DNA of 63,845 nt, filler included, from Octopus bimaculoides (Eukaryota), in NCBI RefSeq assembly GCF_001194135.2. It is 4 parts of 4 records of this genome, joined end to end, with 100 filler letters (N's around TTAATTAATTAA, not from the genome) between each part and the next. Parts side by side here need not be neighbours in the genome. Positions count along the whole stretch, not along the records: positions 1 to 27,701 come from NC_068981.1; positions 27,802 to 57,433 come from NC_069005.1; 2 more parts are not named here. One strand, 5' to 3'. Shown piece by piece: positions 237 to 47,342 of the stretch; the first letter of the stretch is position 1, and the number at the start of each line of letters is the position of its first letter. The notes under the pieces were generated by a model. It searched no databases and was not told the DNA's origin. It was given only the letters and a program-made list of their open reading frames with translations. The translations under genes and the position numbers were made by a program.

Positions 237-324
237 TATTCCTACATATGTTTCAAAGGATTACAACCTATGTGATCCATAGGGATCTGTGATATTAAAA
301 TTGTAACCTTCTCTTCAGGGAATA
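237..324 (-). ncRNA. Type-I hammerhead ribozyme motif with long helix II (PLE-terminal-repeat type)
   Basis: Minus strand reads TATTCC-CTGAAGA-GAAGGTTACAA...TTGTAATCCTTT-GAAAC-ATAT-GTA-GGAATA. Helix I has 6 bp, the CUGANGA/GAAA core is intact, helix III is palindromic (ACATATGT) and the cleavage triplet is GUA. Homologous to 18233-18320. Confidence 0.85.
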
Positions 325-3096
325 ATTTGTATATATTTATTTTATCATAAATGCAGAACAACACCACAGAAGAATCGACGTAATCTTAAATAATAAACCG
401 CGATAGGTGAACCGCGATATGGCAAGGGATTATTACTGCATTCCACTCTTTGTTTCATTTTCTCTCATTTGCATTTCTCTGCGTGCGTACATGAAGGATG
501 TTCGTTTGTTCGTACTTGTATGCGCATCTGTGTTTGTGTGGTTTTGCGTGAAATAAAAGCAAACATTTATAGCGATAACTTGCATATTTATTTTCAATAC
601 ATCCTGGTAAATTCGAACTCAAATATGCTAATTGCTGTTGTGTAAATCACAATAGGACAACTTCTCCTTCTTACACAAATGTGTTCATAATACACTCGGC
701 TCATTGGTGTAAGGGATTCCTGGACGCTGGTGTTTAGACATGTTGAAGCTCATTAGACAGAAGCATCCCCGGACCTTTATAGATTCGGTCAACCGACTAA
801 AATTAGACGCAAATCTTCTCTATATTACAAGCTCTAACGTCTTTTGGATAATGAAGTTGCAGATAAACTATATCAGAATAACATTCAAGATAGTCACGGC
901 TGGTATGACATTGATCATAGATGTTCTTGATCAGGGCTGACCTGGGTTTAAACAACAACGGCGACAACCAAAACAACGATAATATAGCTTTGAGAGAGAT
1001 AGCGAAATATATATGAAGTCAGAAAAGAAAAGGGGGAACAGTAAGGTAGAAGGTGGGATGGCAGAGAGAGAGAGAGAGAGAGAGAGAGAGAGAGANNNNN
1101 NNNNNNNNNNNNNNNNNNNNNNNNNNNNNNNNNNNNNNNNNNNNNNNNNNNNNNNNNNNNNNNNNNNNNNNNNNNNNNNNNNNNNNNNNNNNNNNNNNNN
1201 NNNNNNNNNNNNNNNNNNNNNNNNNNNNNNNNNNNNNNNNNNNNNNNNNNNNNNNNNNNNNNNNNNNNNNNNNNNNNNNNNNNNNNNNNNNNNNNNNNNN
1301 NNNNNNNNNNNNNNNNNNNNNNNNNNNNNNNNNNNNNNNNNNNNNNNNNNNNNNNNNNNNNNNNNNNNNNNNNNNNNNNNNNNNNNNNNNNNNNNNNNNN
1401 NNNNNNNNNNNNNNNNNNNNNNNNNNNNNNNNNNNNNNNNNNNNNNNNNNNNNNNNNNNNNNNNNNNNNNNNNNNNNNNNNNNNNNNNNNNNNNNNNNNN
1501 NNNNNNNNNNNNNNNNNNNNNNNNNNNNNNNNNNNNNNNNNNNNNNNNNNNNNNNNNNNNNNNNNNNNNNNNNNNNNNNNNNNNNNNNNNNNNNNNNNNN
1601 NNNNNNNNNNNNNNNNNNNNNNNNNNNNNNNNNNNNNNNNNNNNNNNNNNNNNNNNNNNNNNNNNNNNNNNNNNNNNNNNNNNNNNNNNNNNNNNNNNNN
1701 NNNNNATATACATATGTATATCTATATATCTATATCTATATCTATCTATCTATCTATCTATCTATCTATCTATCTATCTATCTATCTATCTATCTATCTA
1801 TCTATATATATATATGTATGTATATATATATATTTATATGTATATGTATATAATGATATAAATAATATATAAACATATGCATATATCCATACATATATGT
1901 ACATACCTACATCTACATGTATACATACATGGATATATGGGTATAGGACATCACAAAAAAGCGTTGTGTGTGTGCATGTGTGTATGAATGCGTGTATTAT
2001 ATAAATCCTTATTGGTCAACGAGGTTTACATACTTTTTGATGTACTCCCAAAGGTATTAAGCATCAGAAGCAGCAAAACCACACCCACAACTCCTACCAC
2101 TATATCCTCAAGCATTACCAACACCACCAGTATAACAACAACAACAACAACAACAACAACAACAACAACAACAACAACAGTAGCTGCAGCAAAATGCCAA
2201 AGAAACTAGAAATATAGAATCTAGAAAAAAACAAAAAAAAATTCACAGCTTGGAATAGGAAAGGATGTAATCAAGCGAGACATGGTATGGCTTTTATCAA
2301 AGCCGATGATTTGCTTTGAGGATGTTCTGATGAAAGCAATGCATGCATAGTTAGTTCGGTTCCAGCAGTTGTACAGTTTTGTCTTTAAGAAAATATTGCC
2401 CATTGTAGCCTCTGTGAACCATTGGCGTTGATATTTGTAGCAATACTGTTTTATATTGCATTTGCACAGATCATGTCACATCGTGGTTGTATTACATCCT
2501 CTGAATTTGCATTAATTATAGAATTTTCATTGAAGAATTTTAGTGGAGTTCCACAGAATATTTGTATCCAATTCTACAGTTGTATATATGATATGTATCT
2601 GTGTACGTACGTACGTACGTACGTACGTATGTATGTATGCATGTATATATGTATGTATGTATGTATGTATGTATGTATGTATGTATGTGTGTATGTATGT
2701 TATCAATCAGTTTCATTTCTGTATTTCTTGTCCATAGAGAAAGAGCCGGACTCTAACATAAATTCAAGGCTCCTTCATTGGAACTTTTATCAACATCATC
2801 TAGGTATTTGTGCATATGTGTGTGTGTGTGTGTGTGTGCAGTATTTGGTGTTAGTGTATGCGCAGATTTGTATGTTTGTTTTATGGATGCGTTTTTATGT
2901 ATATATTTTCATGTCTAGGCGTATGCATATGTGTATGTATGTATGTATGTATGTATGTATGTATGTATGTGTGCATCTACATGAAAATCTATATATCTAT
3001 ATATTTTATTCGCTACTGGTCTTAGTCAGAAGCTGAGGTCATACTGGAATACTGCCTTTAAATGATGGGACGCTATATATGTATATATATATATAT

Positions 3097-4880
3097 ACTT
3101 CCTTTCCGGAAGTAACAGGAGGTCTATATAGGAATGACGTCTTATTTTTTCTGGACAGAAGTAGTAAAGTACAGTTAGAAAGGCATAGGAAAAATTTCTT
3201 TAGACTTTTTAAAAATTTAAGACTTAACATTACTATAGGTAAAGATTATCGTAGAGTGAATTTTTTTGATGCTAGTTTCTGTCTTGATACTGGATTATTT
3301 GAACCATTTCATAAGCCAAATGATCATATTAAGTATATTAACGTAGCATCCAACCATCCACCTTCGATTATACGGGTATTGATTAGGAGTATTTCTACAA
3401 GAATTTCTATATTATCCGCTAATATTAAAATTTTCGAATCACATGCAACTTATTATCATGCTGTTCTAACTAGGGCTGGGTACCGTGAAAAGAATTCTTG
3501 TATACAAGAAGCAGGCATACACAACACTGGTGATTCCTCCAATTGTAATACACATTATACACCATTACAACATTACAGTTTGAGAACTCACTCAGAAAGA
3601 GAATACAGGCCAGGAAGAATTGGTCATGTCAATGAAGTACCAACGAAAACTCATAGACATACTCGACATAATAAACCAACTGCTTGTTCCAATCCTGTAC
3701 AACACGCTCGATCAAATAAACCTACCAGATATAAGAAGCAGGATGTCATCTGGTTGAACCCGATTTTCGGTTCGCATGTTTCAACCAAGATCGCTGGAAA
3801 ACTTTTTGCTGCTTTGGACAAATGCTTTCCTAAATCTAATCGGTATCATGCTAATTTTAATCGGCACACCATGAAGGTATCCCATGTCAACTCTGCTAAT
3901 TTAGAGCAGCTTATGCATCACATAAACAGTAGCAAAATGCAGCAAAAGTTCAATAACCCACCTACTGGATCTAGTGAACATATGAATCTTAATATTAATC
4001 AAGGAGGTGCAAATCGCAATGATAAACATCAACTACGACCAAATTGTAGTAGCAGAAATACTTATGATACAGCTAACACGGTAACAGCGTAAGTAAATGG
4101 AGTCGGGACTGCCTTATACACAAATAAATACGATAAATGCTCATGCAGAGAAAAATCAAAATGTCTGTATGAGTACAAATCTTGTATATAAATGTATCAT
4201 GCACACAAGGGGAGAGCCGTATGTTTACATTGAGCAGACGGCTGATTCATTTAAAACAATCAATAAGCGACATTCAACATCTTTGGCAGATTTTGTATGG
4301 CGACTGAAGGAGGATAAAATGAAGTACAGCATAACTTGGTCCATAGTAAGGCACGCTAAACCATGCAATATAATTTCCAGGAGATGCCGTCTCTGCTCCG
4401 GAGAATCCCTGTCTATTCTGTGGGCTAACGAGAAGATCATTAATTGAATTTCTGAAAGAATCTCGAGATGCCTACACACATATAAATACACTTTCACACA
4501 TTGCAGAGGGAATGAATTTTGAGTAACCGTTAACATAATTTAATTTACTTTGAGGTATAGATGACTTGTTTACTTTTACCCCTCCCCCTATTCTTATAAA
4601 CACCAAGTAGATATCTAACTTGCTTTGTGATCATGAGTGCATCAACACTCAGGTGTGCGTATGCTCACATTATCGCGGATGCTTGTACTCGCGCAATGCA
4701 GCTTGCCCGAGGGCGTTTATACATCCATATTTCTTAACAGTTATTTTAATACTTTTCTTACTGCATTGCGTGTTTGTTTCTCTTTTTTTCCATCCGTGAT
4801 TTTATTTTTGATCTTCTATATAAATGAAGATATTTCCTCCGTATATATTTGTATGTGTGAAACGTTTTATAAAGAGCATA
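3097..4880 (+). mobile_element. Penelope-like retroelement remnant (RT C-half, thumb, GIY-YIG endonuclease; Naiad-like motif set), 5'-truncated
   Basis: ORF 3079-4092 has GLYRND (YRDD-like), VNFFD, PFHKPND-YINVASNHPPSI, RISILS, AGY and VIWLNP...FNRHTMKVS. ORF 4097-4447 has NLVYKC...YVYIEQTADSFK, STSLADFVWRLK, ITWSIV and RCRLC, and ISRCLH follows the stop. A decayed HHR lies at 4819-4871. Confidence 0.9.
4819..4871 (+). ncRNA. Decayed minimal hammerhead motif in PLE 3' region
   Basis: TATAA-ATGAAGA-...-GAAAC-GTT-TTATA. Helix I has 5 bp, core C3 is mutated and helix II is decayed. It lies about 300 bp after the GIY-YIG coding end. Confidence 0.4.
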
Positions 4881-46800: not shown

Positions 46801-47036
46801 TAAATGGTTGTATTAGTATAACACTCGGGAATAGAGAAAGTCTTCTATAAAAACGGGACACAGAACGAAATAAGGAGGGAAACAAGGAGAGAAAAAAAGA
46901 AGAGAAAAAAGAGAGAAAAGATGGAGAGAAATATATATATATATATCTATATATACGTAGGTACTGTAAGTTTAGAGGGAATACTTGATAAGTGTAAGCA
47001 CCTGTATATGCCAGATAGTGGCAGAGGTGAGAGAAT

Positions 47037-47342
47037 ATATCAAATATAAATTAAAAACAGAACACAAAGGATATCGCGGTACACGTGTTTCAAGCGAACC
47101 TTTATACAAATATACCTTTTCAAAGGGATGTGATAAACCTATTATAATGGGTAATACTACGTGTACTTTTTCTTTTGTGATGCAATCTTTGGACTAACAA
47201 TGTTTGCGGCTGAGGAGAGCTTTACACGATCTTTTATATCAATGATATACCTATGCTGATGTAATAACAGATTGTTTATAAAGCTTGAAACACGTGTACC
47301 CCGATATCCTTTGTGTTCTGTTTTTAATTTATGTTTGATATA
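47037..47342. repeat. Inverted repeat pair (47037-47095 and 47283-47342) carrying a hammerhead
   Basis: ATATCAAATATAAATTAAAAACAGAACACAAAGGATATCGCGGTACACGTGTTTCAAGC is the reverse complement of GCTTGAAACACGTGTACCCCGATATCCTTTGTGTTCTGTTTTTAATTTATGTTTGATAT with 2 differences. Confidence 0.92.
47206..47302 (+). ncRNA. Type-I hammerhead ribozyme motif, long helix II
   Basis: GCGG-CTGAGGA-GAGCTTTA...TAAAGCTT-GAAAC-ACGT-GTA-CCCC. Helix III is palindromic (ACACGTGT). The inverted arm has CCGC, a perfect partner for GCGG. Confidence 0.82.

What the first reader, a model, noticed from the sequence alone, without database searches (positions are those of the whole stretch)
237..47342. System-level: recurring asymmetric head-to-head fold-back repeats anchored on hammerhead ribozymes
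Seen: four unrelated sequence families (6.2-6.8, 9.6-10.5, 22.8-23.3 and 47.0-47.3 kb) share one layout. Two copies of a non-coding repeat point away from each other. One arm carries a whole HHR (or both half-motifs) at its inner end, and the other starts inside helix II or right beside the core. None has coding sequence attached. Known: PLE pseudo-LTRs carry minimal type-I HHRs with palindromic helix III, and PLE insertions often have an inverted partial repeat at the 5' end. Inference: these are pLTR-only, retrozyme-like non-autonomous elements. The short arm begins upstream of the GUH cleavage site, not at it, which suggests the ribozyme fold itself triggers RT stalling and fold-back or template switching. 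Four cases in 64 kb implies a very large genome-wide population.
Basis: partly seen in the sequence, partly recalled or inferred. Interest (0 to 1): 0.85.

Follow-up and report, generated by a model that had tools for sequence, protein, structure and literature searches.

The report
Truncated inverted Penelope-like retroelement ends
The four hairpin-shaped repeats carrying hammerhead ribozyme motifs are real, but they look like the ordinary short, dead tail-end copies that Penelope-like jumping genes leave behind, and the idea that the ribozyme sets the fold-back point was not borne out in the one family that could be tested.

Summary
All four head-to-head inverted pairs exist (88-98% arm identity). 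Each long arm carries a type-I hammerhead (HHR) motif, intact in C and D and degenerate in A and B. Locus A's junction is in DNA runs of two studies. A Penelope-like element (PLE) coding remnant at 3.1-4.5 kb ends in the same kind of HHR. The layout is published: an inverted 5'-truncated copy, head-to-head, with self-priming proposed (PMC3846280, PMC8557442). The new claim, ribozyme-set breakpoints, is weak. All four aligned short arms start in helix II, but P is about 0.06 once ascertainment is allowed for. Long arms read 34-103 nt past the core. A's inversion centre lies about 79 nt upstream of the core. In five other inverted joints of family A and its relatives, 0 of 5 short-arm ends and 2 of 10 ends fall in the HHR (18% expected). 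Six of ten HHR loci have no inverted arm. No HHR tandem array, so retrozyme membership fails. The scan noted this layout before in other genomes. Verdict: new families of a known kind; low interest.

The parts
6291..6581 (-). Locus A long arm: 5'-truncated PLE 3' end; 6512-6570 is family sequence
   Evidence: one search shows other contigs over 6433-6567
6460..6505 (-). Locus A HHR-like motif without helix III (core CUGAUGA, 4-bp helix II, GAAAUC as family letter)
   Evidence: family letters tables 3-4; relatives with an intact 3' half in table 7
6553..6648 (.). Locus A hinge: 29-bp inverted repeat around a 5-nt loop, then a second tandem copy of the 31-nt unit
6641..6841 (+). Locus A short arm (resumes at the G8-A9 end of the core; aligns well from 6655)
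9626..9835 (-). Locus B long arm with HHR 9801->9718 (A13 degenerate) and an upstream HHR 3' half at 9816-9830; outer end abuts a gap
9836..10306 (+). SINE-like pieces filling the B spacer
   Evidence: the SINE label is recalled
10307..10473 (+). Locus B short arm, starting 22 nt from C3 in the helix II loop
22823..22991 (-). Locus C short arm, starting in the 5' part of helix II; keeps GAAAC-AAUUU-GUA
22992..23262 (+). Locus C long arm with complete HHR 23062-23134
47036..47106 (-). Locus D short arm, starting at the 3' strand of helix II
47107..47342 (+). Locus D long arm with complete HHR 47210-47298; cut by a gap
182..326 (-). Family E copy 1: complete HHR 318->243, no inverted arm
18141..18376 (+). 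Family E copy 2: complete HHR 18239-18314; a perfect 23-bp hairpin (18141-18192) ends 47 nt upstream of the core
63609..63825 (+). Solo copy of family B, no inverted arm
3085..4520 (+). 5'-truncated PLE coding remnant (end of RT, thumb, linker, broken GIY-YIG domain)
   Evidence: no Pfam hit; motif names recalled
4816..4874 (+). min-HHR about 300 nt after that ORF (C3 degenerate, GAAAC-GUU, helix I 5 of 6 pairs)
6219..6262 (-). About 45-nt HHR-only insert between TA runs
12152..12179 (-). min-HHR with an extra A after A9 and a palindromic helix III, no inverted arm

Best explanation
These are dead-on-arrival, heavily 5'-truncated insertions of several endonuclease-positive Penelope-like element families. 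Inferred steps: (1) the PLE protein nicks AT-rich or (TA)n DNA and starts reverse transcription at a fixed site 45-170 nt downstream of the HHR on uncleaved RNA; (2) synthesis usually stops after 100-300 nt, so most copies are only the HHR-bearing end; (3) in a minority the 5' junction forms with an inverted second arm, either by the cDNA end folding back and self-priming with template jumps (favoured for A by its hinge), or by both nicked strands priming a cDNA each. Breakpoints lie near the HHR mainly because the HHR sits close to the element's 3' end and fills 18-47% of these short arms, not because it causes the stop. Shown here: the layout, the motifs, A's hinge and the spread of breakpoints. 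Inferred: the integration steps and the link of families A-D to a specific autonomous element.
For: Layout matches print: head-to-head inverted, shorter pLTR, junction palindromes, self-priming (PMC3846280); inverted 5'-truncated copy and microsatellite bias (PMC8557442). HHR features match PLE min-HHRs: palindromic or absent helix III, long helix II, extra base after A9 (PMC4209133). A PLE coding remnant in the window ends in a min-HHR. In vitro a PLE protein starts RT about 110 nt into the ORF just downstream of the HHR, does not need HHR cleavage, and extends both nicked strands (PMC11167929). Long arms continue 76, 34, 70 and 103 nt past the core. Five other opposite-strand joints have short-arm ends 40-133 nt downstream of the cleavage site. 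Depth falls at 0.021 per nt downstream of the HHR, 0.014-0.015 within it and 0.008-0.009 upstream; no pile-up of ends (table 6). 6 of 10 HHR loci have no inverted arm. 5 of 12 outer ends lie within 15 nt of (TA)4+ against 7.8% background.
Against: All four aligned short-arm starts fall in helix II (P 0.011 if uniform, 0.064 if conditioned on the arm containing the 3' half). Depth drops two-fold between the 6441-6453 and 6454-6466 bins beside the cleavage site (0.053-0.056 per nt); at least part of this is relatives that stop aligning there (table 7). No DNA similarity links A-D to the PLE remnant, and no ORF-start remnant was found in the arms. No target-site duplication or tail could be defined. 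Only family A was tested outside the window, with five joints. Three of them may come from a related family, and arm orientation can be read from the tables for only three. The tool warns that depth is not copy number and that joints at likeness under 95 can come from repeats.
Confidence: 0.8

Rival explanations
1. PLE-derived as above, but HHR helix II (or its mirror hairpin in the cDNA) is a preferred stop or landing site, so short arms start there more often than geometry predicts.
For: B, C, D and the aligned part of A start in helix II. A's right arm resumes at the G8-A9 end of the core after a jump. The aligned long-arm ends at 6469 and 6477 in two other copies lie in the HHR. Similarity between E1 and E2 begins at helix I.
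Against: 0 of 5 other short-arm ends and 2 of 10 ends lie in the HHR, against 18% expected. No raised loss rate within the HHR. Loop II is variable, so alignments end there regardless, as A shows. Long arms passed through the fold. Family A's HHR is short and lacks helix III, so it is a mild test of this idea.
Confidence: 0.12
2. A-D are dedicated non-autonomous, retrozyme-like elements (pLTR-only masters) mobilised in trans by PLE proteins.
For: No coding sequence in or beside the arms. Solo pLTRs and trans-mobilisation are described (PMC3846280), and retrozyme monomers are common (bioRxiv 10.64898/2026.07.22.740005). B has a second HHR half 14 nt upstream of its core. Relatives of A with an intact HHR half appear in RNA runs (14 and 19 partial reads, all under 90% alike).
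Against: No HHR-bearing tandem repeat among 120 TRF rows. Fixed 3' ends with variable 5' ends fit truncation. Arms reach only 34-103 nt upstream of the core, while the in-window PLE has about 300 nt between ORF end and HHR, so no ORF is expected in them.
Confidence: 0.15
3. The arms are terminal inverted repeats of non-autonomous DNA transposons (MITEs) that happen to hold HHR-like motifs.
For: TIR elements do occur here (7061-7961 with a Mos1 HTH hit; 48098-48349). Outer ends are TA-rich.
Against: Arms are unequal. Family B has a solo arm. Inner ends vary between copies of family A. HHR helices are kept with compensatory changes in family E (51 of 54 cells paired, 2 double changes, but only two sequences and not above shuffles).
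Confidence: 0.03
4. Assembly artefacts at gap edges.
For: B's left arm and D's right arm abut gaps; complex PLE insertions are known to trouble short-read assemblies (PMC8557442).
Against: A's junction is present with 0 differences in two runs from two studies. Arms differ by 2-11% and by indels.
Confidence: 0.03

Closest known systems
Complex insertions of EN+ Penelope-like elements: pLTR plus adjacent inverted 5'-truncated copy (Arkhipova 2013 PMC3846280; Craig 2021 PMC8557442)
   Same: Head-to-head inverted arms of unequal length, palindrome at the junction (A), solo pLTR-sized copies, TA-rich or microsatellite flanks, HHR in the repeat
   Different: No ORF attached to A-D; one-sided 30-40-bp tail and TSD not demonstrated; parent elements not identified
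PLE minimal type-I hammerheads (Cervera and de la Pena 2014 PMC4209133)
   Same: CUGANGA/GAAA core, 0-2 bp palindromic helix III, long helix II, extra base after A9 in some
   Different: Helix II regions of 57-76 nt in B-E are longer than the 7-8-bp stems reported; A and B have degenerate 3' halves; no activity tested
Poseidon PAc of Anolis (Frangieh 2024 PMC11167929)
   Same: Genomic 3' end a short fixed distance downstream of the HHR; AT-rich targets
   Different: There the ORF starts in stem II; no ORF start was detected here
Non-LTR retrozymes (Cervera 2020 PMC7229834; bioRxiv 10.64898/2026.07.22.740005)
   Same: Non-coding, type-I HHR, PLE-related
   Different: Retrozymes are tandem repeats with an HHR in each unit and give circular RNA; here copies are single or inverted and 5'-truncated

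Membership tests
EN+ PLE insertion (5'-truncated pLTR copies) | Type-I min-HHR in sense orientation near the 3' end | tested here: met
   C and D complete, A and B degenerate; 44-170 nt from cleavage site to 3' end. Rfam models do not hit.
EN+ PLE insertion (5'-truncated pLTR copies) | Fixed 3' end with variable 5' truncation | tested here: met
   Both arms share the outer end in A, B and D; family A contigs start at 6291-6299 and inner ends vary
EN+ PLE insertion (5'-truncated pLTR copies) | Adjacent inverted, shorter copy at the 5' side, head-to-head | tested here: met
   4 of 10 HHR loci; other opposite-strand joints
EN+ PLE insertion (5'-truncated pLTR copies) | Same family linked to an RT plus GIY-YIG ORF | tested here: inconclusive
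   A PLE remnant with a 3' HHR is in the window but does not match A-E by blastn; no genome to extend
EN+ PLE insertion (5'-truncated pLTR copies) | One-sided 30-40-bp tail; TSD or microsatellite target | tested here: inconclusive
   5 of 12 ends beside (TA)4+; AT-rich loose ends before 6291 in 8-10 contigs with agreement 0.63-0.65; two ends lie at gaps
Non-LTR retrozyme | Tandem units of roughly 200-350 nt, each with an HHR | tested here: not met
   No such array in the window
Non-LTR retrozyme | Expressed, self-cleaved linear and circular monomers | tested here: inconclusive
   About 6% of two RNA runs read: only 14 and 19 partial reads from relatives, no pile-up of ends, no RNA joints
Non-LTR retrozyme | Catalytically active HHR | not testable with these tools
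   Needs an in vitro cleavage assay
TIR DNA transposon / MITE | Symmetric terminal repeats with a fixed interior, both ends always present | tested here: not met
   Unequal arms, solo arm at 63609-63825, variable inner ends

The most novel reading that the evidence does not exclude
In PLE families with long, stable helix II (C, D, E type), the hammerhead fold or its mirror hairpin in the cDNA is a preferred stop or landing site for the PLE reverse transcriptase. The ribozyme would then shape the inverted insertions without cleaving, giving the PLE hammerhead a structural role and making genomic breakpoints a read-out of the integration mechanism.
Probability: 0.12. Interest if true: 0.55.

Novelty: new member of a known kind. 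Interest (0 to 1): 0.2.

Why it matters
As it stands, little: these are further families showing a published PLE insertion pattern. The density is useful, though (about ten HHR loci and four inverted pairs in 57 kb of called sequence). A good assembly of this genome would offer many junctions for two open questions: whether inverted PLE arms come from cDNA self-priming or from priming at both nicked strands, and what the HHR does, since cleavage is dispensable in vitro (PMC11167929).

Tried and rejected
Whole-genome test: no genome held. Rfam: the window scan's shown rows were miRNA/snoRNA matches on microsatellites (150 of 360 shown); focused scans of C and E1 gave no hammerhead. Free MFE folding of ten HHR windows gave weak z-scores (+0.8 to -2.2), so folding energy is not evidence; E1, E2 and D did fold as three-way junctions. 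A relaxed HHR scan was no better than shuffles. No RNA holder listed for 6180-6960. ORF-start remnants in the arms: none significant. Pfam on 37 of the 191 stop-to-stop ORFs of 90 aa or more (most of those left out run across gaps or microsatellites): no PLE family; hits were a Mos1 HTH, zf-RVT, RVT_1 and three sub-cutoff matches on one ORF. Comparison with other repeats: 4 of 10 HHR loci against 2 opposite-strand neighbour pairs among 27 SINE-like copies, with one SINE 5' palindrome added by hand; Fisher P 0.07, not significant, and those neighbours were not checked for head-to-head homology. I first read B as a permuted (type II) HHR and rejected that when the degenerate 3' half at 9725-9718 and helix I were found. 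I first placed A's cleavage site at 6455 and revised it to 6460. The mismatch counts 25/29 and 22/27 printed come from a one-base offset and are not used. The palindrome at 60416-60477 with CUGAAGA was left out of the census because its 3' half is not convincing. Literature: no paper held at least 4 of 'Penelope, hammerhead, reverse transcriptase, stall, 5 truncation'; searches listed none on HHR-positioned breakpoints; subscription papers and supplements were not seen. Look-ups of earlier scan notes by place and by sequence were empty.
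Full report
Setting. The window is repeat-rich eukaryote-type DNA with 6,826 N bases and 36% GC, many microsatellites and SINE-like, mariner-like and LINE-like pieces. 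The repeat content recalls a cephalopod; that is recalled and comes from no call. No genome is held, so tests outside the window rest on one run search and one lay of reads.

Observation. All four inverted pairs are there: A 88.7%, B 98%, C 90% and D 97% identity. Taking the HHR strand as sense, the 3' ends point outwards and the 5' ends meet. C and D carry complete type-I motifs. In both, the short arm keeps a 3' helix I strand that pairs better with the long arm's 5' strand than the long arm's own does (read), which suggests a well-formed parent. B is one motif with a 70-nt helix II region and a degenerate third core segment; a solo third copy lies at 63609-63825. A has a core and a 4-bp helix II but no helix III. 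Close relatives share that form, and more distant relatives show an intact GAAAC...GUC/U half at about the same place (tables 3 and 7). A strict HHR pattern finds 3 motifs against 0 in 12 shuffles; a relaxed one is not above chance. Rfam does not recognise C or E1. A's junction is real: contigs of runs X2 and X4 (two studies) cover 6407-6654 without a difference and show the strand switch. B-D were not checked this way, and two of their arms abut gaps.

What they are. I count ten HHR loci by hand; four have an inverted partial copy within 700 nt upstream and six do not. One of the six follows a coding remnant at 3085-4520. Its first frame matches the unnamed protein P0001 at 28% over 279 residues (E 2e-31), and its second frame matches the C-terminal part at 30% over 101 residues (E 4e-14). 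[quoted passage not shown] The motif names and the Neptune/Nematis-type reading are mine, from recall and from PMC8557442; Pfam gave no hit. A min-HHR sits about 300 nt after that ORF. So this genome has PLEs with a 3' HHR, and arms that reach only 34-103 nt upstream of the core would hold no coding sequence. The remnant does not match A-E at DNA level, so the parents of A-D are inferred.

The breakpoint claim. For: BLAST starts all four short arms in helix II (+29, +22, +13, +74 from C3), P 0.011 if starts were uniform along the long arm. The right side begins with an inverted copy of the long arm's last 29 nt around a 5-nt loop, repeats that unit once, then jumps to the end of the core. Other contigs confirm 6512-6570 as family sequence, so the turn is about 79 nt upstream of C3. 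In every locus the long arm runs through the HHR, so under a fold-back model the short-arm start is a landing site and not a stall site.

Independent sample. Laying two DNA and two RNA runs on 6285-6660 at 80% likeness gave six opposite-strand joints, one being locus A itself. In the other five the shorter arm ends 133, 119, 82, 74 and 40 nt downstream of the cleavage site: 0 of 5 in the HHR, and 2 of 10 ends overall, against 18% expected. Three joints can be read as head-to-head from side lengths and listed pieces; two cannot, and three may belong to a related family. Three further joints were same-strand skips and were not counted. Depth declines at about 0.021 per nt downstream of the HHR, 0.015 within it and 0.009 upstream. 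There is one two-fold step beside the cleavage site, which coincides with relatives ceasing to align. Depth is not copy number, and subfamily divergence contributes. No place showed a pile-up of ends. The family letter is shown by 36 and 34 contigs at 6364, 8 and 8 at 6462, and 3 and 4 at 6513, so family A looks like tens of copies. The RNA runs gave 14 and 19 partial reads, all under 90% alike, from relatives. This tests one family whose HHR is the weakest of the four.

Mechanism. Most likely (0.8): abortive PLE integrations. Published in vitro work on a Poseidon element shows RT starting at fixed sites downstream of the HHR, no need for HHR cleavage, AT-rich targets, and nicking and extension of both strands (PMC11167929; parts 1-2 of 4 read). 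Applying this to these families is inference. The inverted arm arises either by cDNA self-priming, proposed from junction palindromes in PMC3846280 (passages and section 6) and favoured by A's hinge, or by two cDNAs primed at opposite nicks and joined at their truncated ends (my inference from PMC11167929). I cannot separate these for B-D.

Comparison with what is known. [quoted passage not shown] PMC4209133 (passages) describes PLE min-HHRs with absent or palindromic helix III and their massive occurrence in animal genomes. Retrozymes are defined by tandem HHR units (PMC7229834, passages; bioRxiv 10.64898/2026.07.22.740005, part 1 of 5 and passages); that feature is not met here. No supplements were read; element sequences in them might name these families. 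I found no paper that maps inversion breakpoints on the HHR, so the question is open in the library searched, but my data do not favour the effect. Four earlier notes of this scan describe similar structures in other genomes; they are unchecked and not used as support.

Verdict. Observation partly confirmed; interpretation partly supported. New families of a known kind, interest 0.2. The residual novel case, helix II as a preferred stop or landing site, has probability about 0.12.

Noticed in passing
window 3085-4874 (+): 5'-truncated PLE with RT thumb, linker, a broken GIY-YIG domain and a 3' min-HHR; the linker has an insertion of roughly 60 residues relative to P0001. No inverted partner found.
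   Followed up: partly
window 6219-6262 (-): An insert of about 45 nt that is almost only an HHR, between TA runs, ending 6 nt after the cleavage site.
   Followed up: no
window 18141-18192, 50128-50159, 53701-53782, 60416-60477: Four near-perfect short palindromes (arms of 16-41 bp). One sits at the start of a SINE-like copy, one upstream of HHR E2, and one is centred 7 nt upstream of a CUGAAGA followed by a hairpin. Small fold-backs are not limited to clear HHR loci.
   Followed up: partly
window 50786-51150: Inverted pair (73 nt at 89%, visibly longer by eye) whose inner ends flank microsatellites; no HHR seen.
   Followed up: no
window 7061-7961 and 48098-48349: Mariner-like TIR elements; the first has long nested inverted repeats and a Mos1 HTH remnant.
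   Followed up: partly
window 9816-9830 and 63609-63623: Family B carries a second HHR 3' half 14 nt upstream of its core, and similarity between the two copies begins exactly there; possibly a remnant of tandem HHRs.
   Followed up: no
window 6380-6440: This 60-nt segment is shared with much more abundant related families that have intact HHR 3' halves and appear in RNA reads.
   Followed up: partly
window 37-77 (-), 16994 (-), 28637 (+), 48380 (-): Further degenerate or half HHR motifs, not counted in the census.
   Followed up: no
window 13693-14115 (-), 17384-17794 (-): LINE-like remnants with zf-RVT and RVT_1 hits.
   Followed up: no
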